A stretch of DNA of 64,000 nucleotides, taken from IMG/VR virus record IMGVR_UViG_3300031992_000063, positions 22,390 to 86,389 of that record, one strand, 5' to 3'. Positions 17,202 to 29,460 of this stretch are shown here, piece by piece. Both the position numbers and the translations under genes were made by a program. The stretch is from a virus (lineage: Duplodnaviria > Heunggongvirae > Uroviricota > Caudoviricetes). The notes beneath the pieces were generated by a model. It had not been told where the DNA came from. It ran no database searches and saw only the letters and a list, made by a program, of their open reading frames with translations. Each line of letters opens with the position of its first letter. Position 1 is the stretch's first letter.

Positions 17202-17203
17202 AT

Positions 17204-17291: not shown

Positions 17292-17540
17292 TTCGAGTCC
17301 CTCACTATCTCGGCGCAAAAAGTGAGAACGCAGGCAAGCACGTATGCTACCCGGGAGCCACAACCCCGTAAGTCAGCCTAGGATGACAGAGCGTGAGAAC
17401 CAGCGTTAGGTTACTAGAGAAAATATAACGACGAATTTGATGTTCCGTAAAAACATTCCGTAGGCCCACACGAAAATGAGGACGTAATGGCGACACGAAG
17501 ATTCGCTAGCGGACTTAGGAGTTGCGAACCTAGGTGGCCG
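17292..17540 (+). ncRNA. About 250-nt non-coding spacer; begins with a tRNA 3'-half-like fragment (TTCGAGTCCCTCAC)
   Basis: No ORF and no cloverleaf. Contains repeated TTCCGTA motifs. Confidence 0.25.
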
Positions 17541-17600
17541 TGATTTCCCATAATTTGAACGCTAACGCAATTAGACAAGTAAAATTATGGGATTTTTATT
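17541..17600 (+). terminator. Rho-independent terminator
   Basis: 10-bp stem CCCATAATTT...AAATTATGGG followed by ATTTTTATTTG. Confidence 0.55.
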
Positions 17601-17627
17601 TGACTTTTTCTGAAATTGTAGTATAAT
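17600..17627 (+). promoter_or_regulatory. Consensus promoter (TTGACT-16/17-TATAAT)
   Basis: Promoter family member. Followed by the conserved TATAGAAAGTGAGGGAGAG leader. Confidence 0.55.
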
Positions 17628-17651
17628 TATTATAGAAAGTGAGGGAGAGAA

Positions 17652-17819
17652 ATGGAAAGATTTACACTTGAATATGAACTTGATAATGATAGGGTTTCTA
17701 TTGAAAGATATAGAGAACAAGGTGAACCTCTTCGTTATGCAGAATATTGTGAAGCTTTTGTAGCTTTTATGACTGCGATTGGATATCCCCAGATAAAACA
17801 AGTATTTGACAAAGAATGA
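17652..17819 (+). CDS. Small hypothetical protein (55 aa)
   Basis: ATG 6 nt after a GGGAGAGA leader. Ends TGA at 17817-17819. Confidence 0.35.
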   Translation: MERFTLEYELDNDRVSIERYREQGEPLRYAEYCEAFVAFMTAIGYPQIKQVFDKE

Positions 17820-17834
17820 AAATTGAGGTATAAT
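17806..17834 (+). promoter_or_regulatory. Perfect consensus promoter TTGACA-17-TATAAT driving the tRNA array
   Basis: TTGACA at 17806-17811 and TATAAT at 17829-17834, immediately upstream of tRNA-Ile. Confidence 0.6.
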
Positions 17835-17847
17835 AAATATACCGAAA

Positions 17848-17921
17848 CGGGCACTAGCTCAGTTGGTGAGAGCATCGGTCTTATAAACCGGTGGTCCTTG
17901 GTTCGAATCCAAGGTGCCCGA
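17848..17921 (+). tRNA. tRNA-Ile(TAT), AUA-reading
   Basis: CGGGCAC acceptor, GCTC-AGTTGGTGA-GAGC, anticodon loop CTTATAA, CTTGG-TTCGAAT-CCAAG. Confidence 0.6.
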
Positions 17922-17927
17922 TTATAA

Positions 17928-18001
17928 TGGGGTGTAGCCAAGTAGGCGAAGGCACGAGACTTTGACTCTCGGATGCGTAGGTTCGAGCCCTACCACCCCA
18001 G
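17928..18001 (+). tRNA. tRNA-Gln(TTG)
   Basis: U1-A72, G73, anticodon loop CTTTGAC, GTAGG-TTCGAGC-CCTAC. Confidence 0.65.
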
Positions 18002-18006
18002 CTTAT

Positions 18007-18082
18007 GACCCCTTAGTCCAACCAGGCAGCAGACAATAGACTTAAAATCTATCAAGTATGGGTTCGAATCCCATAGGGGTTA
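18007..18082 (+). tRNA. Class-I-shaped tRNA with Leu-type anticodon TAA (reads UUA/UUG); A73
   Basis: GACCCCT acceptor, anticodon arm ATAGA-CTTAAAA-TCTAT, 5-nt variable loop, ATGGG-TTCGAAT-CCCAT. Confidence 0.45.
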
Positions 18083-18960
18083 CTTGTCATAGGCAGGGAA
18101 GCACGATACCCTGACGTGCCCGGGTCACGAAAGCTACTGTGTGCTAGTGGATATGACATCGGCTGAAAAACGAGAAGGCATGGGAAAATAGATTGGTAGT
18201 CCCGGGCAGTTATTAGGGTAACTCCCTAAACTGCAGAGGAAGCGGCTTCATCTACCGCTCTCGTCACATAGTGTAGGCCGTTAGTCTCGGAGAGACCGAG
18301 GATAAATAAGCGAGGCCGCTCTGTGAAGCGGGTTGCGACGAGCAACCTCCGTGGATACACGACCCACGTAAAAAAGGTGCCGCGCTGATAGACCGCAAGT
18401 TCGCAATAGTCTATCATCTGGAGCAATGACAGGACTTTATGCGTGAAACTAAGCTCCTCGGCATCCTCACCAATTTGAGGGGAGAAATCCAAAAAATGGG
18501 ATGGAACGCATACGCTGAGTAAAACTGCGTAACAAAAAGAGAAAGTAAGACGCTCAATAATGGTCTACAAGAAGCGCAAACTGTATGGCTTTGCATGTGC
18601 CAGATTGCTCGGCGCTTAATAAAAGAGGAGCAAAGTAAGTGCTAGTATTCCATAAAATGGGAATGAATGGTTCTCATTGCTAGCAATTCGCCCAATATAG
18701 CTCAAAGGCGAGAGCAACGTTCGCGGAGATGCAGTTCGAGTCTGCTGAGGGCTTCGCGCGAATATATCGGCAACTGATATAATGATTAACAAGAAGTTGC
18801 GGCCGTATCTCAGGGTCGTTCTGGGAAGAGGGAAAATATTAGTTTTGGGTTGTAGGTTCGACCCCTACTACACTGGGCAAAGCGCTCGGTGTAATCGAGA
18901 GGAATACCATAAAACTAATACGGCTTAGCTAGCCTGACCTCGGTCAGCTTGATAGCTACA
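18083..18960 (+). ncRNA. About 880-nt structured non-coding region (unidentified large RNA candidate)
   Basis: No ORF longer than 90 aa on the + strand; only spurious minus-strand ORFs. Dense local helices. An RNase P P4-like GUCCCGGGC at about 18199. A tRNA-like fragment (GCUCAAAGGCGAGAGC D arm plus GCAG-UUCGAGU-CUGC T arm) at about 18690-18750. A T-arm-like GUAGG-UUCGACC-CCUAC at about 18845. Confidence 0.3.
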
Positions 18961-18966
18961 AGTTGA

Positions 18967-19039
18967 CCTCTTTATAGCAGAATAGTGTAGAGGTCTAGCA
19001 CGATTGGTTCATATCCAATAGACATAGGTTCAAATCCTG
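18967..19039 (+). tRNA. tRNA-Met/Ile2(CAT)
   Basis: Anticodon loop TTCATAT, ATAGG-TTCAAAT-CCTGT. A1-A72 mismatch. Confidence 0.55.
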
Positions 19040-19158
19040 TTTCTGCAATCGGCTTCATAAATCATATGAACGCCTCCATAATAAATAAGAACTTTGGCCT
19101 TCTGTTCTCCTTTTAACAAAGGCTTGGGAAGGCACAATATTATACTGGATGTGATAAT

Positions 19159-19812
19159 ATGACATTTAATGTTACAGCTCAAGCTAATCTTGGCGTAGCC
19201 AATGTACAAATTCAGTATGATGGGTAGAAGCGATTAAAGTTGAGAATAATGTGCGGAAAAAAGTCTATATATTATGACCCCGTATCCAATATGGTAATAC
19301 CATTAACATTCGGAAATGGCACATATTCATTTCGACTGTATGAAAATACCATTGGTAATTCATATAAACTAATTGCTTCAAGGTCACGTTCTATTCATAT
19401 GAAGGATGTTAATGCCTATAAATTAAATGCTAACTATTTTGTTAATTTTGATGAAGCTTCCTCCTTCTTTCAAATTGCGAAAAAATTAAGAGATTGGACC
19501 GCAATTAAGAATTATATTAGTAATAATTTTAGATACGATTATATCAAAGCCTTAACTGCACCAAAATCTAAAAATCTAGTGCCTCCAGACTTAGAAAAAG
19601 TTTTTTCAGAGAAAAGTGGTATTTGTGACGGACTTGCGGCATTAACTGTAGCATTCGCGCGCATCTGCGGCATTCCTGCTACATTAGTAATGGGAAAGGC
19701 AGACAGAAATGCACATGCTTGGGTAAAAGTTGGCGATGAATTATTTGATCCTACTTATGTTATCCAACGGCGCAGAACAAAAATTAAATATGTAGAAGAA
19801 CGTGAGTATTAA
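19159..19812 (+). CDS. Transglutaminase-like cysteine peptidase domain protein (about 217 aa), 1 in-frame TAG
   Basis: ATG 19159 is in frame with ORF 19240..19812 through TAG at about 19225. Cys, His and Asp are present in GICDGLAAL...NAHAWVKVGDELFDPTYV. Confidence 0.5.
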
Positions 19813-19816
19813 TTAT

Positions 19817-19844
19817 TTGACTTTCTTACAAATTATGTTATAAT
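19817..19844 (+). promoter_or_regulatory. Consensus promoter (TTGACT-16-TGtTATAAT)
   Basis: Promoter family member, immediately upstream of the interrupted tRNA. Confidence 0.55.
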
Positions 19845-19864
19845 ATATTTGTAAGAAAGGGAAT

Positions 19865-20028
19865 GGCCCTATAGCTCAGTTGGTAGAGCATGCGGCTGGT
19901 CAGAATAGCCAAGTAGTAAGGCATACCATCCCAAGAGAATTATTCTCGTAAGAAGGTAATCGCAAGTGCAATTCTTGCTTCTGGCGCCATTAACCGCAGT
20001 GTCGTAGGTTCAAGTCCTACTGGGGCCG
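19865..20028 (+). tRNA. Interrupted tRNA: canonical acceptor, D, T and anticodon stems with an about 91-nt structured insertion in the anticodon loop; anticodon undetermined
   Basis: GGCCCTA / TA / GCTC-AGTTGGTA-GAGC / A / TGCGG [98 nt] CCGCA / GTGTC / GTAGG-TTCAAGT-CCTAC / TGGGGCC / G. The insert contains nested helices GAGAA-TTA-TTCTC and GCAAG-TGCAATT-CTTGC. Confidence 0.5.
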
Positions 20029-20075
20029 AACATCTTTCATCATCTTCAAACATCTTTTAACATCTTTCAATCACC
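20029..20075 (+). repeat. Four tandem copies of an 8-11 nt unit (ACATCTTTCA / CATCTTCAA / ACATCTTTTA / ACATCTTTCAA)
   Basis: Direct repeats between two tRNAs, followed by the hairpin GGCGC-GAGA-GCGCC. Confidence 0.5.
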
Positions 20076-20097
20076 TCTAGGCGCGAGAGCGCCACTT

Positions 20098-20169
20098 GGG
20101 CCTATCGTCCAATGGTTAGGACTCTAGACTGTTAATCTAGGTATCTTGGTTCGAATCCAAGTGGGCCCG
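20098..20169 (+). tRNA. tRNA-Asn(GTT)
   Basis: GGGCCTA acceptor, GTCC-AATGGTTA-GGAC, anticodon loop CTGTTAA, CTTGG-TTCGAAT-CCAAG. Confidence 0.7.
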
Positions 20170-20173
20170 CTTT

Positions 20174-20288
20174 AAAGACACATCAGCAACTCTTATTTGC
20201 TTCAGGAGCCCGTTAAGTGTTGGTCCAAATCCAGCCCGTCCTGCGTAGGACGGTAGCCCAATAGTAGAGGCGCGGTTATAAGTGTGTC
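20174..20288 (+). ncRNA. About 115-nt structured element closed by an 8-bp long-range stem (AAGACACA...TGTGTCTT)
   Basis: Contains the hairpin CCGTCC-TGCGTA-GGACGG. No canonical cloverleaf. Confidence 0.3.
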
Positions 20289-20296
20289 TTGTTCTT

Positions 20297-20369
20297 GGGT
20301 TGATAGTGATAATGGTTAGCACTTCTGCCTTGCAAGCAGAGAGTCAGGGTTCAATTCCCTGTCGATCCA
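20297..20369 (+). tRNA. tRNA-Ala(TGC)
   Basis: G3-U70 present, anticodon loop CTTGCAA, CAGGG-TTCAATT-CCCTG, A73. Confidence 0.65.
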
Positions 20370-20434
20370 CTTCGAAAGACATGACGGTCATTCGATATTT
20401 TTCAGCAGGGAACTGGAACCGCCCTGCTCCCCTT

Positions 20435-20506
20435 GACCTTATCGTATAATGGTTATTACGCTAGCTTGTCACGCTAGTAATCGCAGTTCAATTCTGCGTA
20501 AGGTCG
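20435..20506 (+). tRNA. tRNA-Asp(GTC)
   Basis: GACCTTA/TAAGGTC acceptor, anticodon loop TTGTCAC, CGCAG-TTCAATT-CTGCG, G73. Confidence 0.65.
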
Positions 20507-20517
20507 TTTGTCTTAGC

Positions 20518-21153
20518 ACGTAGACATTAAATATTCGTGTCGGCCCGGACTCTGTGACTGTAAACACAGGCAACCGTTAACACGGATTTAGCACTTCAAC
20601 TACCACTGGCGTGATTGGGAGGAGTGTTTATGGATGAACTTCCTAAACTATACTCCATAATCAAACGCGATATGTGGCTTGCGGAAAACGGTATATAAAG
20701 AAGCGAAGCAAAGTGCAGTTTCATCTTCAGCCAGAGATCTGGTGGCGTAAAGGCATCGTCGTAATTAGTATAAATGTTGCTCGGCAACCACGCAACCCGG
20801 CCGTGGGCAGAATAGCTGGGGTAAATTGAAGATGAAAATCCTCAGCTCATGTGCGTGCTACCCACGGGTAACACAATAGTCGTGAGTTGGATGGGACCGT
20901 ATTGCGGCAACGGTATATAAAGACGCATCGCATAAGCTCAGCTTGCCCGTTGGGATCTTAAGAGCGAGTAGCGAAAGTACTCAACAAAGAATGCTCCCAA
21001 CTCCGATTCTCCTAGACATGAGTGGTTGGATTACACGGTGAGAGTCCGTGATAAACACCAATAAAAGGTCTATTGCGCGCAAGGGTTTGTAGGTAGTTCC
21101 TCCTTCTGAGGGAAAAACCTTCTTATCTTACAATTATAAGGAGAATATAAGTA
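20518..21153 (+). ncRNA. About 635-nt non-coding structured region containing a duplicated about 35-nt motif
   Basis: No + strand ORF. TTGCGGaAAACGGTATATAAAGAaGC..CAG at about 20676 and TTGCGGcAACGGTATATAAAGAcGC..CAG at about 20905, about 228 nt apart. Confidence 0.3.
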
Positions 21154-21690
21154 ATGGACGCAAGACTTAAGATTCTACCACCTTGGACTATCGTTATTCG
21201 TAAGTTTGAGGCTCTATTTGACGGCGACCCACAGATTGCTTTTAATACAGATTTTTCCGGTTCTCACCCAACAGTTGTACTTGCCTGTAACAATGGCGAT
21301 AAAGTAAATGCTCTTTGCCAGATTTTGCCAGATGAAATTAAGTTTGGTAATGTTACACTAAAGGTTATGGTTGATGGTACTCCATCTAATCGTGTTTTCA
21401 CAAGTAAGGTTGAACTATTTAATACTGCTTTTAGCGGCAATCCTGCCTTTGCTTATGCCGTATGTCCTGCAGAAGAAGGCTATCAGTGGATTGGCACTAC
21501 CTATGTAGTATTTAACAACTGTGTAGTGCAGTTTGCCGCAGATAATCTAAATGACTGTCACGGCATTATTAGTACCTTATATGAAACTATTGCCGAAGAA
21601 CTTCTAACAGGCCCGGCAACAGAAGGCGTATTCTATAATACAAATGTAGAGCGCGCTAATCTTGGTAAGCCACTCGGTGAATGGCCGTAA
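21154..21690 (+). CDS. Hypothetical protein (178 aa)
   Basis: ORF track entry. RBS AAGGAG. Confidence 0.55.
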   Translation: MDARLKILPPWTIVIRKFEALFDGDPQIAFNTDFSGSHPTVVLACNNGDKVNALCQILPDEIKFGNVTLKVMVDGTPSNRVFTSKVELFNTAFSGNPAFAYAVCPAEEGYQWIGTTYVVFNNCVVQFAADNLNDCHGIISTLYETIAEELLTGPATEGVFYNTNVERANLGKPLGEWP

Positions 21691-22330
21691 ATTTAAAAAT
21701 AATGACACTTACAGCAACTTTTTGGAACAAGATTTTCTGTATAAAAATTTTATAAAGGTGTCATGATAGTTTAGACGCTTACAGCAACTATTTAATACAA
21801 TTTGTGCCATATTTTTACAAATAATATTGTGCGTCTAGATTTTTAGCCATTGCGAGGATAGTTGCCCGCAACATCCTACGTTTTATCATATGAAATGGCT
21901 CGCGCGATTGCTGACGGCAGTAGAGCGCGCGTTATAAATATCGGAACTTGCCGTTTCCTTGCCATACGGTGGTAGTTCCGTTCAAGGCAGAAAACCTGCG
22001 GTCCAGCTGGACGCGATGATGGCTAGTTTGGGGTTTTACGCCACGCTTTTAGGAAGCGCAACCCGCTAGAACGAGATTCTAGCACGCCTCTCCCTATCCC
22101 TATACGCCTCTTAACAATGCGCACCACATAGGGCATTCTGTTAGAGCCTTACACGCCTCTTAACAATGCGGACCAAGTAAGGACATTTAGTCTCGATTAG
22201 TAAAACTTGTATACCGGTTACCTCTAAGCTAAGTTACGAGTTATAGGCTTTAATAAATATAGGAGCAATGAGCGGCTACTTTGCTTAATATTCGGCCCGC
22301 TGACGAGCGTCTATGACAAATCCTATATTT
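21691..22330 (+). ncRNA. About 640-nt non-coding region with two pairs of direct repeats
   Basis: AC(A/G)CTTACAGCAACT(T/A)TTT at about 21705 and 21770. ACGCCTCTTAACAATGCG(C/G)ACCA at about 22105 and 22152. GC-rich hairpins such as CGCGCG...CGCGCG. Confidence 0.3.
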
Positions 22331-22332
22331 AT

Positions 22333-22411
22333 GCCCGAGTGGCGGAATGGCAGACGCGCCTGACTCAAAATCAGGTTCGTAAGAGTGTGGGTTCAAGTCC
22401 CACCCCGGGCA
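22333..22411 (+). tRNA. tRNA-Leu(CAA), class II
   Basis: Anticodon loop CTCAAAA, 11-nt variable arm, GTGGG-TTCAAGT-CCCAC, A73. Confidence 0.7.
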
Positions 22412-22429
22412 CTTTAAAGGAGTGATTAT

Positions 22430-22858
22430 ATGAAAATACTACGAATACTTTTGTTGGCTTTAATTTTTACCTTTATCCCAGTCGGTTCTGCCGCAGCAGC
22501 GCCATCAAGAACAACCGAAAATGCTATTGTTCTCTCGCCGGACTATTAGTTTGAAATAGCAGAAGAGAATGAAGAGTGGCCTGAAATTTTAGAACTCATA
22601 GACGAAACATCAGAAGAATATGAGTTAATTGAGGCTATTAAGGTTAATATTGATGTGCCATGTGAATGGCTATATGTAAAGCTCGTTTATCCGCTTACGA
22701 CAGAGCAAGAACCGTTTGTACTTATTGTTAATGATAATAAGGAAATTACTAAACAGGAAATTGGCTTTGATGAGGATGGACGAGCTTGTATTGATTTCAT
22801 TAACTATGATACTGGCGAATATTGGATTTGTTTTTATGTTCTAATCGCAGAATAAATT
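22430..22858 (+). CDS. Secreted small protein (signal peptide; about 142 aa), 1 in-frame TAG
   Basis: RBS AAAGGAG followed by ATG 22430, reading MKILRILLLALIFTFIPVGSAAAAPS... It is in frame with ORF 22655..22855 through TAG at about 22547 and ends TAA. Confidence 0.5.
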
Positions 22859-22860
22859 AT

Positions 22861-22888
22861 TTGACTTTTATAAAAAATATGTTATAAT
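22861..22888 (+). promoter_or_regulatory. Consensus promoter (TTGACT-16-TGtTATAAT)
   Basis: Promoter family member, upstream of tRNA-Thr. Confidence 0.55.
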
Positions 22889-22946
22889 ATAATTGTAATA
22901 AAGGGAAAGATAATATTTATGCTGGCCCGTGTGATGGCCAGTAAAT

Positions 22947-23018
22947 GCTCCTATCGTACAACGGCTAGTACTGCTGCCTTGTAAGCAGCAAATGGCGGTT
23001 CGAATCCGTCTGGGAGCT
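22947..23018 (+). tRNA. tRNA-Thr(TGT)
   Basis: Anticodon loop CTTGTAA, GGCGG-TTCGAAT-CCGTC. Confidence 0.65.
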
Positions 23019-23111
23019 TTGTAATTTAGGGAACAAGTTACCGTAAAAGACTTGCGCGCACAGCGGACCTGTAACGGGGAGAGGAGGTCGTAAATATCCC
23101 CTTTCCGCCAT

Positions 23112-23186
23112 GCGCCATTAGCACAGTGGTAATGCAGCTGACTCTTAATCAGCGAATTCTGGGTTCGAATCCCTGATGGCGCACCA
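23112..23186 (+). tRNA. tRNA-Lys(CTT) with encoded CCA
   Basis: GCGCCAT/ATGGCGC acceptor, anticodon loop CTCTTAA, TTCGAAT T loop, ACCA at the 3' end. Confidence 0.65.
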
Positions 23187-23399
23187 TTAAATGACAATAC
23201 ATTACCCTCTACACTGTGTAGAGATGGAGTGTGAGTCGCACCTACGGGGTGTCTGGGTCCTAATGTAGCACCAGATAGTAGGAGTTAATCGCCCTATAAG
23301 GCTCACTAAGTCATTCATTTTATATTATATGGAACTAATTCACTCAGAGTTCCTGCGGTTCAAGAGTGAGGCTTGCGGCGCCTTAGACCGCTATTATAT
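23187..23399 (+). ncRNA. Structured spacer with several hairpins, including an about 75-nt element closed by the GTGAGTC/GGCTCAC stem
   Basis: CTCTACA-CTG-TGTAGAG and GGAACT...AGTTCC hairpins. No cloverleaf. Confidence 0.2.
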
Positions 23400-23508
23400 G
23401 CGGTGGTATCCAAGTAGACAAAGGGGCCAGCCGGTAAGTCTGGTGCCTGCGCCGGTATGCTAGCTAAACCGTAGGCTTCGCAGGTGCAAATCCTGACCCG
23501 CCGCACCA
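23400..23508 (+). ncRNA. tRNA-like gene (106 nt plus encoded CCA) with tRNA acceptor, D and T arms but a non-canonical, enlarged anticodon/variable region
   Basis: GCGGTGG...CCGCCGC-A-CCA acceptor. D arm TCCA-AGTAGACAA-AGGG (tRNA-Gln-like). T-like arm GCAGG-TGCAAAT-CCTG. Internal helices GCCAG/CTGGT and GCCTGCG/CGTAGGC. Confidence 0.35.
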
Positions 23509-23511
23509 TAT

Positions 23512-23901: not shown

Positions 23902-24003
23902 CGATGCTCGTTAATAGGGACGAGTATGATGGGTTCGCGGCCATCATTCCTATTCGGTTATTTTTGGTACCGGTTTATACGTAAGCCAAAACTGGTACGG
24001 CCT

Positions 24004-24244: not shown

Positions 24245-24273
24245 TTTGACAATTACTAAAATTATGTTATAAT
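24245..24273 (+). promoter_or_regulatory. Consensus promoter (TTGACA-17-TGtTATAAT)
   Basis: Promoter family member. Confidence 0.55.
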
Positions 24274-24307
24274 TTATTTGTAAGAAAGAAAGAAAGGGAA
24301 TTAAAGT

Positions 24308-24529
24308 ATGAGAATTACACCCTGTCCTAAATGTGGAAGAATTCCTAAAATTGTTGAGTGCTGTCGGGCAAAAAATGGAGCAAGACGTAGAATTGTTTTT
24401 TGCCCTAATCTCTGTATTATTTGTACTCCTCGTGTATATTACACTTCTTTTACCTTTATCGGTGACGGAGATGACAACGCTGTTTATAAACTGTGGAATG
24501 AGAAAGTGAGGGCAAGTAAGAATGCGTGA
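24308..24529 (+). CDS. Cys-rich small protein, possibly Lar-family restriction-alleviation-like (73 aa)
   Basis: CPKCG...C..C plus a C-terminal ...AVYKLWNEK resembling the Lar-family ...AWNRR tail. Confidence 0.35.
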   Translation: MRITPCPKCGRIPKIVECCRAKNGARRRIVFCPNLCIICTPRVYYTSFTFIGDGDDNAVYKLWNEKVRASKNA

Positions 24530-24725
24530 TCCCAATCGTATTGATAAGTTTTGTAATGAACTCGCGCAGCTCTGGCACAAGGTTCCAGATTGGCGTTTTG
24601 GTCAGCTTATGTGTAATCTTCTTGGAGAATATACGAGAGCCACGAAGAAAGACCCTTTCTTTCCAGAAGATAATGAACTAATGAATTTTTTCAAAAACTA
24701 CTTTAGGAGAGATACCGATGAATAA
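24522..24725 (+). CDS. Hypothetical protein (67 aa)
   Basis: ORF track entry, overlapping the upstream stop. Confidence 0.45.
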   Translation: MRDPNRIDKFCNELAQLWHKVPDWRFGQLMCNLLGEYTRATKKDPFFPEDNELMNFFKNYFRRDTDE

Positions 24726-24969
24726 TGAAGTAATTAATAGTATGGATGTTGATGAATTACGAAATTATGCGTTTCATCTTCAAGAACTTGATGACGCAAG
24801 ACGGCAGTATATTGGCGCCCAAAGGGATATGATTGATATCCTTCAACAGCTTTATAATTGCCAGCTATATCGTGATGATAGTAATGTGAAACTTAATTCT
24901 AAATTAGCCATTGTTCAACGACTCCAAGAAGAATTAACGACAAAATATTCAGAAAAGCCTGTGAAATAA
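24718..24969 (+). CDS. Hypothetical protein (83 aa)
   Basis: ORF track entry. Confidence 0.45.
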   Translation: MNNEVINSMDVDELRNYAFHLQELDDARRQYIGAQRDMIDILQQLYNCQLYRDDSNVKLNSKLAIVQRLQEELTTKYSEKPVK

Positions 24970-25186
24970 TAATGACCATTACAGAATCCACCTGATATGG
25001 CTGTGGCTACAAGGCGCGGAAAGGTGGCGGCAATCTCTAGCCCGAGCAAGTTGAAATGATATACACCCTTGGGATGAAATGCATCACTAATGTAAGAGTG
25101 AGATATCACGTGAGAACGTATAGATATATAATGTAGCCGTGCTCCCAGTGGCATGTACCGTAACGTTGGACACTGGGCAAGCTTGT

Positions 25187-25257
25187 AGGAAACTGGTGTA
25201 ATGGTAACACACCCGGCTCCAACCCGGCAGATTAGCGTTCAAGTCGTTAGTTTCCTG
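25187..25257 (+). tRNA. tRNA-Trp(CCA), second copy
   Basis: GTGT-AATGGTA-ACAC, anticodon loop CTCCAAC, TAGCG-TTCAAGT-CGTTA. Confidence 0.55.
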
Positions 25258-25331
25258 TTTTAAGACTCGTGCAGCAACACTATTATTTGTAATTGACTTT
25301 TAATCAATCCGACAGAACGAGTCTTGTATAT

Positions 25332-25405
25332 GCCCGAGTAATCGAATTGGCATAGATATCTGGCTTAGAACCAGAGTTTTGTGGGTTCAACTCCCTCCTC
25401 GGGTA
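25332..25405 (+). tRNA. Class-I-shaped tRNA with Leu-type anticodon TAG (reads CUA/CUG); A73; acceptor identical to tRNA-Leu(CAA)
   Basis: GCCCGAG acceptor, anticodon arm TCTGG-CTTAGAA-CCAGA, 5-nt variable loop (GTTTT), GTGGG-TTCAACT-CCCTC. Confidence 0.45.
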
Positions 25406-25424
25406 CTTAATTTGGAGGTTAAAT

Positions 25425-25730
25425 ATGAATAAATATCCAATAATCACTTTATGCGGTAGTACTCGCTTTAAGGAGGACTTTGAGCGTGTTAATCGCGAAC
25501 TTACACTTCAGGGTAATATTGTTATTAGTGTTGGTTGCTTTGGTCATTCTGGTGATGTTTTTTCAGAGGCCGACAAGGTAATGCTTGATGATATTCATAA
25601 ACGCAAGATTGATATGGCTGACGCGATTTATGTAATCAATAAGAATGGTTATATTGGTGAAAGCACGAAGAGTGAAATTAAATATGCATTGGAGCATCAT
25701 AAAGCAGTAATGTTTATGGAGGCGCCATGA
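25425..25730 (+). CDS. Nucleoside 2-deoxyribosyltransferase-like / DUF4406-like protein (101 aa)
   Basis: ...ITLCGSTRF...ADAIYVINKNGYIGESTKSEIKYALEHHKAV. Confidence 0.4.
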   Translation: MNKYPIITLCGSTRFKEDFERVNRELTLQGNIVISVGCFGHSGDVFSEADKVMLDDIHKRKIDMADAIYVINKNGYIGESTKSEIKYALEHHKAVMFMEAP

Positions 25731-25972
25731 GGAAAGGCAGGGGCATTGACCATAATTGGCAAGTATGTAAATATCTTGGTGATATTGCCTTATATGCTAG
25801 ATGTAAATGTGGTTTTTATTATTCTTGTTCTTCCAGTAAACGCAATGAAGATGGAACTTGGAGTTTTGAGCAAGAAATTACAAAATTATATCACTATTGT
25901 CCTAACTGTGGCGCTCATAAAAAATATTATAACGAAACGCCGCAACAAGTAAATAAATATCTCTGGGAGTGA
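25727..25972 (+). CDS. Zinc-ribbon hypothetical protein (81 aa)
   Basis: CKCG...YHYCPNCGAHK. Confidence 0.45.
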   Translation: MRKGRGIDHNWQVCKYLGDIALYARCKCGFYYSCSSSKRNEDGTWSFEQEITKLYHYCPNCGAHKKYYNETPQQVNKYLWE

Positions 25973-25976
25973 TAGT

Positions 25977-26261
25977 ATGAGAGCTACTGCTGAAAAACGC
26001 CATAACGATTGGAAAAAAGCTATCCGTAAACGCCATATTGATAGGATAACAAGTTTTCCTGGCTCAGATGACTTATATGACAACCTCCATCAGTATTCCA
26101 AGAACAAAGTACATTGTTCTTGCCCTATATGCCGCGCGAAAACTAATAATAAAGATGGAAAAGGTTGGGCTCCAGTTAAAAATTGGTCTAGACATGATAA
26201 GCGCCAATTTGAATCAATGGAAAATCAAATACTTGACAATGAAGAGGAAAATGTGATATAA
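25977..26261 (+). CDS. Zinc-ribbon hypothetical protein (94 aa)
   Basis: CSCPICRAK. Confidence 0.45.
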   Translation: MRATAEKRHNDWKKAIRKRHIDRITSFPGSDDLYDNLHQYSKNKVHCSCPICRAKTNNKDGKGWAPVKNWSRHDKRQFESMENQILDNEEENVI

Positions 26262-26275
26262 TAATTATAGTGAAA

Positions 26276-26292
26276 GGAGGAAACTCCTTTTT
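26276..26292 (+). terminator. Rho-independent terminator
   Basis: GGAG-GAAA-CTCC followed by TTTTT. Confidence 0.5.
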
Positions 26293-26295
26293 ATC

Positions 26296-26364
26296 GAGGA
26301 TGTAGTGTAATGGTAACACGGGTCGCTTGGGACGACCAGTAGGCGTTCGAGTCGCACATCTTCG
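26296..26364 (+). tRNA. tRNA-Pro(TGG) with irregular T stem
   Basis: GTGT-AATGGTA-ACAC D arm (paralogous to Trp copy 2), anticodon arm GGTCG-CTTGGGA-CGACC, TTCGAGT T loop. Confidence 0.45.
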
Positions 26365-26369
26365 ACTTA

Positions 26370-26467
26370 TAGACCATTACAGCAATATTTTATGGGTAAA
26401 AGAAAACTTCTGAAAATAAGTTAACTGAAAGGGTTCAAGTCCCTTAAATAAATGGTCTAGTTTTTTT
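26370..26467 (+). ncRNA. tRNA-like element closed by a 9-bp stem, with a T-arm mimic (AAGGG-TTCAAGT-CCCTT), ending in a T7 run
   Basis: TAGACCATT...AAATGGTCTA long-range stem followed by GTTTTTTT. Possibly a terminator. Confidence 0.3.
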
Positions 26468-26480
26468 AAGGAGAAAATAA

Positions 26481-26615
26481 ATGAAACGATTTTGTATTTT
26501 TCATCGGTATAGGTTTAATTACTACTTAGTTACATTTAACTAGAAACAATTAATTGTTTGGTTTAGATGTACTAAATGTGGAAAAGAACGCGTAAAATGC
26601 TTTGAAGGAGAATAA
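26481..26615 (+). CDS. Small zinc-ribbon protein (44 aa), 1 in-frame TAG
   Basis: RBS AAGGAGA followed by ATG, then CxxxH...CTKCGKERVKC. Ends TAA immediately before the RBS of ORF 26621. Confidence 0.35.
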
Positions 26616-26620
26616 CAAGC

Positions 26621-26863
26621 ATGAAAGAAAATAAGTATGAAATTCATGTAGATGATATCGAACCATTTGTTAATGAAGTATATAGCGGATTTAAAATTTT
26701 ATGGAGCGGTAATATTGGTTGGGGAGAATATACTCTTTATAAAAAGATTGGAAATGACGATGAATGGTTTTGGGATGATGAATGCATGGAAAATCCTAAA
26801 GGCGATAAAGCATTTTTAAAATTATTACTTAATGATTTTGCTACTCAAATCGAGGTAAAATAA
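26621..26863 (+). CDS. Hypothetical protein (80 aa)
   Basis: ORF track entry. RBS GAAGGAG. Confidence 0.5.
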   Translation: MKENKYEIHVDDIEPFVNEVYSGFKILWSGNIGWGEYTLYKKIGNDDEWFWDDECMENPKGDKAFLKLLLNDFATQIEVK

Positions 26864-27310
26864 ATGAAATTATATACATCATACTGGGCGCAAGTTCGTA
26901 ATTTTCCAACAAACTTAATTGTTCTAAATACAACCATTTGGCCGCCTCGATGGTACAATGTGGGTGGAATAGATAAGCGTGGAGTAATTAGTCTTCATTG
27001 TGAACCATTGCGTCCGGGCCATTCATGTGATGGCTTATGTGATGGGCGTTGCGAACCGCGGCATCCGCAAGACTGCGCTTTTCTGCGCGAATACCGTAAG
27101 CAACTTGATGCCATTGATTTTGATGACTTTATACAGCATCTACTTGATTTATAGGCTCGCTTGCTTGAAGATTTTCCAGACAGAAAAGAATTAGATTTCG
27201 CTTTCATCTTCTTTGAAAAATATGATAATCCGTGTAGTGAGCGATGGGCAGTTCAAGATTGGCTTCGCGCGCACGGAGTTGAAATTGAAGAATGGCATCC
27301 TAATATTTGA
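26864..27310 (+). CDS. Cys-rich hypothetical protein (148 aa), 1 in-frame TAG
   Basis: ORF 26864..27154 continues in frame through TAG at 27152 to TGA at 27308-27310, which is embedded in the next promoter's -35. Confidence 0.5.
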
Positions 27311-27334
27311 CTTTTTGTAAAAATTCTGATATAA
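27306..27334 (+). promoter_or_regulatory. Consensus promoter (TTGACT-17-TGaTATAAT)
   Basis: Promoter family member. Followed by the TATAGAAAGTGAGGGAAAG leader. Confidence 0.55.
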
Positions 27335-27360
27335 TTTTTATAGAAAGTGAGGGAAAGAAC

Positions 27361-27723
27361 ATGTATAAGTATAGTATGGTATCTCATAGTCGCAGAAAGC
27401 ATCAACGTTGGCTTAATCGTTATTGTCGCTATGTAAATAGAGTAATAGAAGAAGACTCATTGTGGCGTGGCCGCTTCTATATTACACAACTTCAGTCAGA
27501 TATGGAATGGTTTGAAGATGGTAGCGGCGGTATTATTCATGCTCTTATCCAGATGAAAGATAGAAAGACTGACATTACTTTTGAAAAGTGGTATGACGGC
27601 CTTGATATGACTTGGGAATTTTGGATTGATTTTAATAATTTTATTGTCAATAAAGTAAGAGTTTGGGAAGAAAAGCCTAATCCTTATGATAATATAATTG
27701 ATTATAGAAAGAGGGCAAAGTAA
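27361..27723 (+). CDS. Hypothetical protein (120 aa)
   Basis: ATG 27361 after the GAGGGAAAG leader. The ORF track 27307 start is upstream of the promoter. Confidence 0.5.
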   Translation: MYKYSMVSHSRRKHQRWLNRYCRYVNRVIEEDSLWRGRFYITQLQSDMEWFEDGSGGIIHALIQMKDRKTDITFEKWYDGLDMTWEFWIDFNNFIVNKVRVWEEKPNPYDNIIDYRKRAK

Positions 27724-27724
27724 T

Positions 27725-27958
27725 ATGTATTATATGTATAAAGTTTGTTATTATGATTCTTACAGCGATGAAGAAAAATACAGCAAGGGAATTGTGTGTG
27801 CGACTAATTATGGGACCGCCGCAGACCGTGTAATTCATTCTTATGGAGAAGATAATGTATTGAATCTCTTTCTTAAAGAAATGATGACCAGCAGTATGGA
27901 TGATAAGGATTATTGCCTCTCCGAAGAGGATATTAAGTCCGTCTTTGAAGAAGAATAA
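27725..27958 (+). CDS. Hypothetical protein (77 aa)
   Basis: ATG 2 nt after the upstream stop, in frame with ORF 27698. Confidence 0.45.
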   Translation: MYYMYKVCYYDSYSDEEKYSKGIVCATNYGTAADRVIHSYGEDNVLNLFLKEMMTSSMDDKDYCLSEEDIKSVFEEE

Positions 27959-27959
27959 T

Positions 27960-28341
27960 ATACACCGCTAGATGGGTACAAGCGGTATAAAAGTATGCAA
28001 CCATCTCTCATAAGTAGGGAATAGGAAGTTTGAATCCAGCTATATGAGATGAATCCTGAAGCCCATGACTCTAAGGGACGATGCGTGAATGGCACTACTC
28101 AACCTTTTTCCTAAAATAGTAGCCTAAAAAGAGTCTGAAACGCTAGGTAGCCGAGCAGCGGCATAGGCTCGTTAAATATTTGCCGTATTCAAGCCGAGAT
28201 ACCAGCCACTCGGCTATATAAATCAACGACTGTGTATCATAGGTGTGATGGCGGCGGCACCTAAAATCGCCACCGTGCGGCGCCAGTGGGATAATGTAGC
28301 ATCAACCCTACAAAAGTTGCCCCTTTAAGACTGGCAGACGA
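27960..28341 (+). ncRNA. About 380-nt non-coding structured region (unidentified)
   Basis: No ORF. GC-rich hairpins ACCGCT...AGCGGT and CGGCGGCACC...GGTGCGGCGCC. Confidence 0.25.
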
Positions 28342-28372
28342 TCGGCGGCAAGAAATTGCCGCCTCTTTTTTA
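28342..28372 (+). terminator. Rho-independent terminator
   Basis: GGCGGCAAGAAATTGCCGCC followed by TCTTTTTTATTTG. Confidence 0.6.
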
Positions 28373-29459: not shown

Positions 29460-29460
29460 T

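What the first reader, a model, noticed from the sequence alone, without database searches (positions are those of the whole stretch)
17292..28365. More than 4 kb of structured non-coding sequence interleaved with the tRNA array: candidate large ncRNAs
Several long stretches lack plausible ORFs on either strand yet are rich in GC-clamped hairpins and internal repeats. They are 18083-18960 (880 nt), 20518-21153 (635 nt), 21691-22330 (640 nt), 27960-28341 (380 nt), plus 17292-17540 and 23187-23399. One has a duplicated about 35-nt motif 228 nt apart at 20676 and 20905. Another has two separate pairs of direct repeats, at 21705/21770 and 22105/22152. Large ornate RNAs such as ROOL and GOLLD, and group I introns, are known to cluster next to tRNA genes in phages, and these regions have the right size and context. 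I could not identify any family by eye. There are also tRNA fragments at about 17292 and 18690-18750 that suggest decayed tRNA genes.
Basis: inference. Interest (0 to 1): 0.65.

Follow-up and report, generated by a model that had tools for sequence, protein, structure and literature searches.

The report
Small structured-RNA genes among phage tRNAs
The "empty" stretches between this phage's tRNA genes hold about two dozen small, conserved, folded RNA genes rather than a few giant RNAs, and they include a new family of tRNA-mimicking Y-RNA-like molecules and an orphan antitoxin RNA.

Summary
About 4.2 kb of 17292-28365 is neither tRNA nor credible ORF, even when TAG is read as sense. It is GC-rich, and it is conserved and covaries in related phages.

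No Rfam family for ROOL, GOLLD, HEARO, group I introns, RNase P, tmRNA or 6S matches the window. The long stretches break into modules of 50-300 nt. Each module is conserved in its own subset of 60 related phage contigs, and the order differs between contigs. This is therefore an array of small RNA genes, apparently co-transcribed with the tRNAs.

- **New family.** Five window copies share a closing stem (AGAC...GUCU) and an invariant ACAGCAA motif, and they display tRNA parts. The copy at 20174-20291 has the T-arm, acceptor-hairpin and D-arm layout of YrlA Y RNAs.
- **Ro60-like gene.** A protein with a Ro60-like fold is encoded 10 kb downstream on the same strand.
- **Orphan abiF RNAs.** Two tandem abiF antitoxin motifs have no toxin gene nearby.
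- **Intron-like insert.** tRNA-Thr(GGU) carries a 91-nt insert.
- **Unclassified RNAs.** More than 15 modules match no known family, and several show strong covariation.

True ROOL RNAs occur in 23 relatives, but not in this window.

The parts
16455..16511 (+). Scaffold-family small RNA: closing stem, then ACAGCAA, then a short hairpin insert. It lies just upstream of tRNA-Gly and outside the finding's range.
   Evidence: Motif and stem scan. Single-sequence fold z = -1.95.
17293..17598 (+). RNA 'A', about 300 nt with about 10 helices. It ends in a long hairpin plus a U-run just before the promoter at 17600. Class unknown.
   Evidence: 7 relatives. 25 of 42 pairs show compensatory change, 90% of cells are paired, and slid controls give at most 7. 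No Rfam hit.
18160..18281 (+). Module B1, a multi-stem RNA of about 120 nt with a covarying closing stem.
   Evidence: 9 relatives; 7 of 29 pairs compensatory. Its position relative to B5 differs between relatives.
18290..18416 (+). Modules B2 (18290-18350) and B3 (18350-18416), small two-hairpin RNAs.
   Evidence: B3: 12 distinct sequences, 8 of 14 pairs compensatory. B2: 4 sequences.
18418..18685 (+). Modules B4 (18418-18575) and B5 (18572-18685).
   Evidence: B4: 7 of 25 pairs compensatory. B5: 18 loci, 9 of 20 pairs compensatory.
18690..18752 (+). tRNA-like element with D- and T-arms but only a stub in place of the anticodon arm. Neither ARAGORN nor Rfam calls it.
   Evidence: Sequence and alignment A3. 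Relatives have a tRNA-like element or a true tRNA-Asp at this position. No Rfam hit.
18768..18968 (+). Module B7, about 200 nt. It has a T-arm-like hairpin followed by a 7-bp acceptor-like hairpin and ends in a 10-bp hairpin before tRNA-Met.
   Evidence: 10 relatives; 14 of 38 pairs compensatory. T-arm scan. Terminator-like hairpin at 18942-18968.
19864..20029 (+). tRNA-Thr(GGU) with a 91-nt intron-like insert (19900-19990) in the anticodon loop. The insert itself folds into D-like and T-like hairpins.
   Evidence: Rfam tRNA at 51.6 bits with a 95-nt insertion. ARAGORN intron mode. Homologous 46-56-nt inserts in relatives.
20174..20291 (+). Scaffold-family RNA 'H', a Y-RNA-like tRNA mimic: 9-bp closing stem, UCAGCAA motif, small hairpin, T-arm, 7-bp acceptor-like hairpin, D-arm.
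   Evidence: 15 relatives. 97% of cells paired, 14 of 32 pairs compensatory, 0 of 500 shuffles as high. Local YrlA match at 16.8 bits. CM R1 scores 132.7 bits.
20371..20434 (+). Module G1, two conserved hairpins between tRNA-Ala and tRNA-Asp.
   Evidence: 5 sequences, conserved, but no compensatory changes.
20573..20716 (+). Module C1, a pseudoknotted RNA of about 145 nt with a variable central hairpin. It is the most widespread module. Class unknown.
   Evidence: 25 loci. 98% of cells paired and 10 of 19 pairs compensatory across two crossing helices; slid controls give at most 4.
20725..21125 (+). Modules C2 (20725-20835) and C3 (20836-21125). C3 repeats an 18-nt core motif of C1.
   Evidence: C2: 3 sequences, 3 of 27 pairs compensatory. 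C3: only one relative, so the evidence is weak. Repeat shown.
21702..21839 (+). Two tandem short scaffold-family RNAs (21702-21764 and 21770-21839).
   Evidence: Fold z = -2.4 and -2.9.
21845..22090 (+). Modules D2 (21845-21954) and D3 (21955-22090).
   Evidence: D2: 13 of 18 pairs compensatory. D3: 4 of 22. They occur separately in relatives.
22098..22183 (+). Two tandem abiF RNA motifs (22098-22134 and 22147-22183) with no toxin gene nearby: an orphan antitoxin-type RNA.
   Evidence: Rfam RF03085 at 37.9 bits (GA 37) and 29.8 bits. No Abi_2 domain in the array ORFs tested. Antitoxin role of the two-motif RNA: PMC12373285.
22255..22330 (+). Module D4, directly upstream of tRNA-Leu(CAA).
   Evidence: 4 sequences, 5 of 16 pairs compensatory.
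23028..23110 (+). Module I, between tRNA-Thr and tRNA-Lys.
   Evidence: 6 sequences at 79-96% identity; 2 of 23 pairs compensatory.
23190..23508 (+). Modules E1 (23190-23322), E2 (23330-23400, with a pseudoknot seen in the alignment) and E3 (23400-23508, a tRNA-like RNA with a 7-bp acceptor stem, encoded ACCA and a 9-nt loop).
   Evidence: E1: 8 of 38 pairs compensatory. E2: 10 sequences, with the loop CUAUCC/GGAUAG replaced by CACUC/GAGUG in the window. E3: fold, found only in L001.
23903..24003 (+). Module J2, between tRNA-Lys and tRNA-Trp.
   Evidence: 3 sequences, 4 of 27 pairs compensatory.
26370..26459 (+). Scaffold-family RNA that carries only a T-arm, directly after tRNA-Pro.
   Evidence: CM R1 scores 29.5 bits, E = 0.0016.
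27960..28365 (+). Modules F1 (27960-28130) and F2 (28150-28365). F2 ends in an intrinsic terminator just before the promoter at 28374.
   Evidence: F1: 6 of 34 pairs compensatory. F2: 12 sequences, 9 of 41. Terminator at 28344-28363.
30639..32132 (+). Gene for a Ro60-like protein (Pfam DUF2828 + DUF7788), the proposed partner of the scaffold RNAs. It sits in an RNA-repair cluster.
   Evidence: Pfam. AF2 model with pLDDT 73. The top three Foldseek PDB hits are Ro60, best E = 1.4e-5 and TM 0.48/0.51. Neighbouring kinase, phosphoesterase and RNA ligase genes.

Best explanation
The region is a dense array of small RNA genes in the early, plus-strand part of a phage that reads TAG as sense. Its relatives are roughly 130-195 kb.

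**Expression (inferred).** Strong sigma-70-type promoters would drive polycistronic transcripts in which tRNAs alternate with independent structured RNAs of 50-300 nt. RNase P and RNase Z cuts at the flanking tRNAs would release them.

**Shown**
- The modules are conserved, strand-specific and covarying.
- They are gained, lost and reordered like cassettes.

**The part I can name**
- One family has five window copies and 77 hits in relatives. It shares a closing stem (AGAC-NNN...NNN-GUCU), an invariant single-stranded (U/A)CAGCAA just above the 5' strand, and an A/U-rich 3' loop.
- On this scaffold it displays tRNA pieces: nothing, an anticodon-stem-loop look-alike, a T-arm, a T-arm + acceptor hairpin + D-arm, or a whole circularly permuted tRNA.
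- The T + acceptor + D form is built like the bacterial and phage Y RNA YrlA.

**Mechanism (inferred)**
- The stem and the CAGCAA motif are the binding site of the phage's Ro60-like protein (30639-32132).
- The tRNA-like module recruits or titrates proteins that recognise tRNA. These could be processing or repair enzymes, or host tRNA-cleaving defence nucleases.
- The tandem abiF motifs would likewise sequester a host AbiF-type toxin.
- The other modules (A, B1-B7, C1-C3, D2-D4, E1-E3, F1-F2, I, J2) are new, unclassified structured RNAs, probably with similar RNA-metabolism or counter-defence roles.
For: **Non-coding**
-.
- Frame-breaking indels are visible in the alignments.

**Modular and shuffled**
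- BLAST and nhmmer hits are per module, differ in order between loci, and are all on the plus strand.

**Structure**
- RNA H: 97% of cells paired, 14 of 32 pairs compensatory, 0 of 500 shuffles as high, slid controls at most 3.
- RNA A: 25 of 42 pairs compensatory.
- RNA C1 pseudoknot: 10 of 19 pairs compensatory.
- B1-B7, D, E and F modules.
- The 13 U-G cells at pair 48-109 and 11 at pair 16-119 would be A-C on the other strand.

**Transcription signals**
- Nine plus-strand promoters match 11-12 of 12 consensus positions. Terminators lie at 28344 and 18942.

**Scaffold family**
- The motif occurs 126 times on the plus strand (88 with a closing stem) and 16 times on the minus strand (6 with a stem).
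- There are 99 distinct members. Their architectures are tallied.
- CM R1 gives 77 hits at E <= 0.01 in 1.0 Mb searched on both strands, all on the plus strand.

**YrlA likeness**
- Rfam YrlA aligns family members full-length at 47.8 and 40.9 bits, E = 6e-8 and 6e-6.
- The window copy matches locally across the T-AS-D domain.

**Ro60-like protein**
-.
- It lies within 10 kb of the array in 17 relatives.
- Loci fetched through more distant Ro-like genes (42-54% identity) carry the same RNA on the same strand. CAGCAA is kept there while the stem covaries.

**Published precedent**
- Phage Ro60 with Y RNAs: PMC4201824, PMC12135203.
- A two-motif abiF RNA as antitoxin: PMC12373285.
Against: - There are no expression or RNA-end data.
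- Single-sequence fold z-scores are modest, from -0.2 to -3.
- The consensus structures were derived from the same alignments of fairly close relatives on which pairs were counted. Covariation is therefore inflated by shared ancestry.
- Some pieces have at most two relatives and no covariation: 18084-18160, C3, E3, J1 and J3.
- The scaffold lacks the GNCGAA(N)G motif that defines YrlA, and it scores below Rfam's threshold.
- The Ro60 link rests on a medium-confidence model (pLDDT 73, TM about 0.5). The Ro60-like gene is 10 kb from RNA H, and tRNA arrays are also close to the Ro-like gene, so co-occurrence is confounded.
- The decoy function is pure inference.
Confidence: 0.7

Rival explanations
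1. The stretches are one or a few large ornate RNAs (ROOL-, GOLLD- or HEARO-like) of a divergent or new class, each folding as a unit of 400-900 nt.
For: - The context fits. 23 of 60 related loci carry a true ROOL in this array (345.6 bits in L033).
- 18084-18974 folds better than shuffles, z = -3.1.
- RNA A (about 300 nt) and F1+F2 (about 400 nt) are collinear in several relatives.
Against: - No Rfam match even at E <= 10, and no nhmmer match to ROOL.
- The modules inside each stretch occur alone and in different orders in relatives.
- Supported helices are local to modules.
Confidence: 0.07
2. The tRNA-like scaffold RNAs and the insert-bearing tRNA-Thr are precursors of working tRNAs. They would be permuted or intron-containing tRNA genes, matured by cutting and re-joining with the phage's own kinase, phosphoesterase and ligase. 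Permuted tRNA genes of the red alga Cyanidioschyzon are matured in a comparable way.
For: - Seven family members contain all four arms in permuted order (for example the 113-nt L008/L072 member).
- The acceptor-hairpin loop is 5 nt. In the members I read by eye (L053, L056) it is exactly A-CCA-U (sequences).
- Removing 91 nt from tRNA-Thr restores a canonical CUGGUAA loop.
- Similar inserts recur in relatives with conserved structure.
- RNA ligase, kinase and phosphoesterase genes lie nearby.
Against: - About half of the family carries no tRNA arms, or only an anticodon-like hairpin or a T-arm. These members cannot become tRNAs.
- In the common form the anticodon loop is absent.
- I saw no bulge-helix-bulge motif at the junctions when inspecting the fold.
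- No splicing endonuclease was identified.
Confidence: 0.12
3. The stretches are decaying intergenic DNA: remnants of tRNA genes and spacers with terminators and processing hairpins, but no RNA product with a function of its own.
For: - T-arm-like strings lie outside called tRNAs.
- Some pieces have few or no relatives: C3, J1, J3 and 18084-18160.
- The array is highly mosaic.
Against: - Modules are kept at 80-95% identity in 7-25 loci. The small ORFs beside them are found in 1-2 loci.
- Compensatory changes preserve helices, including a pseudoknot.
- The family recurs next to Ro-like genes in more distant phages.
Confidence: 0.06
4. The stretches encode small proteins that standard gene calling misses because TAG is read as an amino acid.
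For: - The phage does use in-frame TAG.
- With TAG open, plus-strand ORFs of 133 aa and 101 aa appear at 21802 and 23191.
- A 22-codon ORF with a good Shine-Dalgarno sequence sits inside C1, as read from the sequence.
Against: - The other four listed intervals have no plus-strand ORF of at least 60 aa under code 15.
- The two ORFs have no PHROG match. They cross module boundaries that are separate in relatives, and 1-2-nt indels break their frames.
- The C1 mini-ORF lies in the variable hairpin and is absent from most relatives.
- In-frame TAGs elsewhere are confined to the gene blocks at 706-16450 and 38405-47770.
Confidence: 0.03

Closest known systems
YrlA-type Y RNAs bound by Ro60/Rsr in bacteria and phages (Rfam RF02553; Chen et al. 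2014, PMC4201824; Thermus phage phiLo, PMC12135203)
   Same: - A 5'-3' closing stem with a short conserved motif in the adjoining loop.
- An internal tRNA-like domain in the order T-arm, acceptor-like hairpin, D-arm.
- Several copies per genome.
- Same strand and neighbourhood as a Ro60-type gene and RNA-repair genes.
- The Rfam YrlA model aligns family members full-length, E = 6e-8.
   Different: - The motif is ACAGCAA, not GNCGAA(N)G.
- All scores are below the curated threshold (best 47.8 bits against 69; the window copy scores 16.8 locally).
- The protein is DUF2828/DUF7788, with no TROVE Pfam hit, and is Ro60-like only by fold.
- The family is modular, with anticodon-hairpin-only, T-only and whole permuted-tRNA versions.
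- Members are scattered through a tRNA array, about 10 kb from the protein gene rather than within 4 kb.
ROOL and other large ornate RNAs of phage tRNA regions (Rfam RF03087)
   Same: The genomic setting is the same. True ROOL RNAs sit in this array in 23 related loci.
   Different: The window has no ROOL. Its RNAs are 50-300 nt and independent of one another.
abiF motif RNA / RCd22, the RNA antitoxin of the AbiF system (RF03085; PMC12373285). By analogy, phage pseudo-ToxI decoys (my own knowledge).
   Same: Two tandem abiF hairpins a few nucleotides apart, as in RCd22. The first reaches Rfam's threshold.
   Different: No abiF/Abi_2 toxin gene follows them. They sit inside a lytic-phage RNA array, which suggests a decoy rather than a toxin-antitoxin module.
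Small stable RNAs co-transcribed and processed with the phage T4 tRNA cluster (species 1 and 2 RNAs; my own knowledge, not tested here)
   Same: Non-tRNA structured RNAs interleaved with phage tRNAs and presumably released by tRNA processing.
   Different: The number (more than 20) and diversity are far larger. No sequence relation was tested.
Circularly permuted tRNA genes of Cyanidioschyzon merolae, and group I introns in bacterial tRNA anticodon loops (my own knowledge)
   Same: Some members have the 3' half before the 5' half, with the acceptor ends joined by a short loop. One tRNA carries an insert in the anticodon loop.
   Different: - No bulge-helix-bulge junction was seen.
- The 91-nt insert is too short for a group I intron and gets no Rfam intron hit.
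- Most members lack an anticodon.

Membership tests
YrlA (Y RNA-like, RF02553) | T stem-loop, acceptor-like stem-loop and D stem-loop in that order, inside a 5'-3' closing stem | tested here: met
   Window 20174-20291. All helices are supported by covariation. Local alignment to the YrlA model covers positions 30-81.
YrlA (Y RNA-like, RF02553) | GNCGAA(N0-1)G motif near the 5' end, the presumed Ro60 contact (PMC4201824) | tested here: not met
   The window has GACACAUCAGCAA. The conserved element across the family is (U/A)CAGCAA. In L047 the model's GGCGAAUG column aligns to CUAAAGAUG.
YrlA (Y RNA-like, RF02553) | Score at or above Rfam's gathering threshold (69 bits) | tested here: not met
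   16.8 bits for the window copy. The best relatives score 47.8 and 40.9 bits.
YrlA (Y RNA-like, RF02553) | Encoded within about 4 kb of a Ro60 ortholog on the same strand | tested here: inconclusive
   Same strand, but 10.3 kb from a protein that is Ro60-like by fold only. Co-occurrence within 10 kb holds in relatives and in more distant phages.
YrlA (Y RNA-like, RF02553) | Physically bound by Ro60/Rsr | not testable with these tools
   This needs co-immunoprecipitation or a gel-shift assay.
ROOL (RF03087) | Match to the 574-position covariance model at 99.1 bits or more | tested here: not met
   No hit in the window at the gathering threshold or at E <= 5-10. nhmmer with the L033 ROOL finds 23 relatives but not the window.
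GOLLD, HEARO, group I intron, RNase P RNA, tmRNA, 6S RNA | Match to the Rfam model; for tmRNA, also an ARAGORN call | tested here: not met
   None is listed.
abiF RNA (RF03085) | Hairpin with the conserved GCCUCU..AAC..AUGC loop, scoring at least 37 bits | tested here: met
   22098-22134 scores 37.9 bits. The second copy, 22147-22183, scores 29.8 bits, below threshold.
abiF RNA (RF03085) | Located upstream of an abiF (Abi_2) toxin gene | tested here: not met
   D4 RNA, tRNA-Leu and a 141-aa ORF follow the motifs. No Abi_2 domain was found in the 21 window ORFs scanned. ORFs further away were not all scanned.
tRNA (RF00005) with a group I intron | An insert in the anticodon loop that matches a group I intron model and has the size for its core (at least about 200 nt) | tested here: not met
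   The tRNA-Thr insert is 91 nt with no intron-family hit. Longer inserts in relatives were not examined.

The most novel reading that the evidence does not exclude
This phage clade may encode a library of tRNA-part mimics on one common protein-binding scaffold (stem + ACAGCAA). The mimics are anticodon stem-loops resembling tRNA-Lys(UUU), Asn(GUU) and Tyr(GUA), T-arms, and whole permuted tRNAs. Loaded on a divergent Ro60-like protein, they would act as decoys or sensors for host tRNA-cleaving immune nucleases, alongside an orphan abiF antitoxin decoy. That would make the tRNA array an RNA-based counter-defence island.

Alternatively, the permuted and insert-bearing tRNA genes may be matured by a phage-encoded cut-and-ligate pathway not known in bacteria or their viruses.
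Probability: 0.25. Interest if true: 0.85.

Novelty: new variant of a known kind. Interest (0 to 1): 0.72.

Why it matters
- **Gene content of tRNA arrays.** Phage tRNA arrays are usually read as codon-supply or tRNA-replacement kits. Here roughly a third of an 11-kb array is made of other conserved, folded RNAs, so RNA genes may rival protein genes in this part of the genome.
- **A testable handle on Y RNAs.** The scaffold family is modular: one constant protein-binding foot and interchangeable tRNA-like heads. This bears on what Y RNAs and Ro60-type proteins do in bacteria and phages, which is still an open question.
- **A possible new counter-defence mode.** If the heads titrate anticodon nucleases, and the abiF pair titrates AbiF, this would be a compact RNA-only route to counter-defence.
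- **Candidates for structural work.** Several modules are well supported for structural or ribozyme/riboswitch-type studies: RNA A, the C1 pseudoknot, B7 and F2.
- **A practical warning.** ORF-free, GC-rich stretches in recoded phages are neither gene-calling failures nor necessarily giant RNAs.

Tried and rejected
- **GenBank phages.** A distant BLAST of 17200-23500 hit only tRNAs, so there is no annotated relative.
- **Rfam.** There was no large-RNA, intron, RNase P or tmRNA hit. cow-rumen-4 at 15162 turned out to be an unrelated 5'-leader-type motif, not the scaffold.
- **PDB by sequence.** The search with the 497-aa protein found nothing. Only the fold comparison revealed the Ro60 likeness.
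- **The conserved 178-aa ORF 21154-21690.** The AF2 model had pLDDT 47, so no fold search was made. PHROG and Pfam gave nothing.
- **DUF2828 literature.** The search returned only incidental mentions.
- **IMG/VR pattern scan.** The scan for AGACNNNTCAGCAA...GGTTCGA gave 44 stretches. Those from outside this phage clade lacked the closing stem and are chance matches. The family was later found in more distant phages through the Ro-like gene instead.
- **RNA A as a minimal RNase P RNA, and the tRNA-Thr junction as bulge-helix-bulge.** I considered both because of AAGUC/ACAGA strings in RNA A. Neither holds on inspection or in Rfam.
- **A 22-codon ORF inside C1.** It lies in the non-conserved hairpin.
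- **Provenance.** The lookup through the look-up of encoding contigs gave sample accessions but no habitat label.

Full report
**1. What the window is**

All credible genes lie on the plus strand. Opening TAG raises plus-strand ORF content from 11,196 to 17,497 aa. In-frame TAGs are confined to two gene blocks, 706-16450 and 38405-47770. A tRNA with anticodon CUA sits at 15606. This is therefore a phage that reads TAG as sense.

A conserved 178-aa ORF (21154-21690) retrieved 60 related IMG/VR loci at 72-92% protein identity. Many come from contigs of 130-195 kb. GenBank phages hold no relative; only tRNAs matched.

Downstream of the array lies an RNA-repair-type cluster:
- a methyltransferase (28647);
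- a P-loop kinase of the polynucleotide-kinase type (29461);
- a metallophosphoesterase (29957);
- a 497-aa DUF2828/DUF7788 protein (30639);
- an RNA ligase (34716).

**2. Checking the observation**

ARAGORN finds 19 tRNAs. Rfam adds a twentieth, at 19865-20028, with a 95-nt insertion.

The listed intervals have no plausible ORFs under the standard code. With TAG open, two large plus-strand ORFs appear: 21802-22203 (6 TAG) and 23191-23496 (2 TAG). Neither matches a PHROG. Both cross modules that are separate in relatives, and 1-2-nt indels break their frames.

From the ORF coverage, I estimate about 4.2 kb of 17292-28365 is neither ORF nor tRNA. GC is 0.47-0.50 there, against about 0.36 elsewhere. 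The stretch 18084-18974 folds better than shuffles: z = -3.1 on the plus strand and -2.5 on the minus strand, with the plus strand 25 kcal/mol more stable.

Repeats and tRNA-like strings:
- The 21702/21772 and 22098/22147 repeats are real.
- The "35-nt" repeat is an 18-nt repeat at 20687/20909.
- The T-arm-like string at 17292 is not conserved in relatives.
- The 18690-18752 tRNA-like element is conserved in position.

**3. Not large RNAs**

Rfam reports only tRNAs, cow-rumen-4 (15162-15224) and abiF (22098-22134, with a weaker copy at 22147-22183). This held at gathering thresholds and in lax scans of 15-kb, 2.6-kb and 1.7-kb pieces. There is no ROOL, GOLLD, HEARO, group I intron, RNase P RNA, tmRNA or 6S.

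The decisive point is comparative. BLAST and nhmmer against the 60 loci show that each long stretch is a chain of short blocks. Each block is 80-95% identical in its own subset of loci, always on the plus strand, and the order varies. Region 18083-18975 illustrates this:

| Genome | Order of modules |
|---|---|
| Window | B1-B2-B3-B4-B5-(tRNA-like)-B7 |
| L005 | B3/B4-B5-B2-B1 |
| L010 | B3-B5-B1-B7 |
| L026 | B4-B5-B1 |

The modules are found in 7-25 loci, which is similar to the tRNAs (10-28). The small ORFs embedded in the array (19159-19812, 22430-22855) are found in 1-2 loci.

A true ROOL (345.6 bits) lies in L033, and nhmmer finds ROOL in 23 of the 60 loci, always inside the array. It is absent from this window.

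**4. The modules are structured RNAs**

Tests with shuffle and slide controls:

| Module | Sequences | Cells paired | Pairs with compensatory change | Best slid control | Shuffles as high |
|---|---|---|---|---|---|
| RNA H | 14 | 97% | 14 of 32 | 3 | 0 of 500 |
| RNA A | 8 | 90% | 25 of 42 | 7 | 0 of 500 |
| RNA C1 (two crossing helices) | 18 | 98% | 10 of 19 | 4 | 0 of 500 |

RNAalifold on the other modules also gives compensatory pairs:

| Module | Compensatory pairs |
|---|---|
| B1 | 7 of 29 |
| B3 | 8 of 14 |
| B4 | 7 of 25 |
| B5 | 9 of 20 |
| B7 | 14 of 38 |
| D2 | 13 of 18 |
| D3 | 4 of 22 |
| D4 | 5 of 16 |
| E1 | 8 of 38 |
| F1 | 6 of 34 |
| F2 | 9 of 41 |

- E2 shows a loop-to-downstream pairing that changes from CUAUCC/GGAUAG to CACUC/GAGUG in the window.
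- Many conserved U-G pairs fix the strand as plus.
- Weakly supported pieces are C3, E3, J1, J3, G1 and 18084-18160.

Nine plus-strand promoters match 11-12 of 12 consensus positions, at 15129, 17600, 17806, 19817, 22861, 24246, 26233, 27307 and 28374. Terminators at 18942 and 28344 frame the units. Co-transcription with the tRNAs, and release by tRNA processing, are inferred and not shown.

**5. A scaffold family of tRNA mimics**

RNA H (20174-20291) has a 9-bp closing stem. Inside it come a T-arm, a 7-bp hairpin in the place of the acceptor stem, and a D-arm. This is the layout of YrlA Y RNAs (PMC4201824), and the Rfam YrlA model matches that domain locally.

The 5' end of H, AGAC-ACA-UCAGCAA, recurs at 16455, 21702, 21770 and 26370. 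Each time a matching 3' strand closes a stem.

Occurrence in relatives:
- In the 60 loci the motif occurs 126 times on the plus strand (88 with a closing stem) and 16 times on the minus strand (6 with a stem).
- With further loci there are 99 distinct members of 47-128 nt.
- A covariance model of H finds 77 matches at E <= 0.01 in 1.0 Mb searched on both strands, all on the plus strand. One is the window copy at 26363-26466.

The insert varies between members:

| Insert | Members |
|---|---|
| T + D arms | 31 |
| No tRNA part recognised | 27 |
| Anticodon-stem-loop look-alike only | 19 |
| Anticodon stem-loop + T + D (a whole permuted tRNA) | 7 |
| T-arm only | 5 |
| T-arm + anticodon stem-loop | 2 |
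| D-arm only | 2 |
| D-arm + anticodon stem-loop | 1 |

The anticodon look-alikes have 7-nt loops such as CUUUUAA, CUGUUAA and CUGUAAA. In the members I read by eye, the acceptor-hairpin loop is 5 nt and sometimes exactly A-CCA-U.

The Rfam YrlA model aligns two members full-length at 47.8 and 40.9 bits (E = 6e-8 and 6e-6). This is below its 69-bit threshold, and its GGCGAAUG column is not matched. The family therefore works like a YrlA-type Y RNA but fails two defining tests. I file it as a new variant, not a member.

**6. The likely protein partner**

- The 497-aa protein has no TROVE Pfam hit and no sequence match in the PDB.
- Its AF2 model has pLDDT 73 and pTM 0.67, with a helical-repeat N-terminal part and an alpha/beta C-terminal part.
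- Its only three full-length Foldseek matches are Ro60: Thermus phage phiLo Ro60 (E = 1.4e-5, TM 0.48/0.51) and two Ro60 complexes. All later hits cover only the vWA or repeat part.
- Relatives encode it within 10 kb of the array.
- In loci fetched through more distant homologues (42-54% identity, other sample sets), the same RNA lies within 10 kb on the same strand. It keeps ACAGCAA while the stem bases covary: GAC/GUC becomes GGC/GCC or GUC/GAC.
- Phage Ro60 proteins that bind Y-like RNAs, with a short motif in the bulge next to the 5'-3' stem, are documented (PMC4201824, PMC12135203). Ro/TROVE proteins with a tRNA-like partner are noted in jumbo-phage RNA-repair systems (PMC7824862).

Binding here is inferred, not shown.

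**7. Other identifiable pieces**

*abiF motifs.* The two abiF motifs, 12 nt apart, resemble RCd22, a two-motif RNA that neutralises the AbiF toxin (PMC12373285). No Abi_2 gene is nearby, so a decoy role is plausible but untested.

*tRNA-Thr insert.* ARAGORN in intron mode reads 19864-20029 as tRNA-Thr(GGU) with a 91-nt insert. Removing the insert restores a CUGGUAA loop. Relatives carry homologous 46-56-nt inserts at the same site. These share a covarying stem, a T-loop-like hairpin (GGUGCAAGNCC) and a conserved 3' CAAUUAACC. The insert is too small for a group I intron and has no Rfam intron hit. How or whether it is removed is unknown.

**8. Verdict**

The finding is real and richer than proposed, but the label "large ncRNAs" is wrong. 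The best description is a cassette-like array of small structured RNA genes. It contains a new Y-RNA-like scaffold family paired with a Ro60-like protein, an orphan antitoxin-type RNA, an insert-bearing tRNA and many unclassified RNAs. Function is inferred from architecture and context only. Expression data and binding assays are the decisive missing evidence.

Noticed in passing
window 706-16450 and 38405-47770; tRNA at 15606-15695: In-frame TAG codons (up to 18 per gene) are confined to two gene blocks; the rest of the window has almost none. The tRNA(CUA), which ARAGORN labels 'Pyl', has a long variable arm. The amino acid inserted at TAG is therefore unclear.
   Followed up: partly
L033:2016-2610 and 22 other related loci (e.g. 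L052:8482-9073, L016:1276-1866): True ROOL RNAs (345.6 bits in L033) sit inside the tRNA array of 23 of the 60 relatives, about 1 kb upstream of the conserved 178-aa ORF in the loci checked. This window lacks one.
   Followed up: partly
related loci, e.g. L005:12765-13033, L007:1100-1362, L006:9082-9428, L005:11532-12343: ARAGORN intron mode predicts many insert-bearing tRNAs in relatives. They include the tRNA(CUA) suppressor with about 175-nt inserts and tRNA-Leu(UAA) with 261-327-nt and 726-nt inserts, which could be group I introns. Some of the 96 predictions are surely false.
   Followed up: partly
window 21154-21690: A 178-aa ORF in the middle of the RNA array is the most conserved element of the region. 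It is present in all 60 loci and has 1276 database homologues, all unnamed. It has no Pfam or PHROG hit, and its AF2 model was unusable (pLDDT 47).
   Followed up: partly
window 15162-15224: A cow-rumen-4 RNA motif (63.8 bits) lies between a strong promoter (15129) and the ORF at 15228. It looks like a 5' leader with a Shine-Dalgarno-like loop.
   Followed up: no
window 23400-23508 and 19900-19990: The tRNA-like RNA E3 has a 7-bp acceptor stem, an encoded ACCA, a long extra arm and a 9-nt 'anticodon' loop. It shares an unusual D-loop (CCAAGUAG) and T-loop (GUGCAAWUC) with the insert of tRNA-Thr.
   Followed up: partly
window 20029-20066: A 10-nt unit (AACATCTTTN) is repeated three times in tandem between the insert-bearing tRNA-Thr and tRNA-Asn.
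   Followed up: no
L008:2936-3055, L017:2965-3080: Sub-threshold Rfam matches to cow-rumen-3 (60-64 bits, threshold 86.7) and DUF3800-XI (about 28 bits, threshold 37.8) occur in the arrays of relatives. This points to further RNA cassettes that this window lacks.
   Followed up: no
window 28647-36092: An RNA-repair-type gene cluster follows the array directly: methyltransferase, polynucleotide-kinase-like P-loop kinase, metallophosphoesterase, Ro60-like protein, DUF5662 and RNA ligase.
   Followed up: partly
window 19159-19812: The largest ORF inside the array is a transglutaminase-like (papain-fold) protein with one in-frame TAG. It is found in only about 2 relatives.
   Followed up: no
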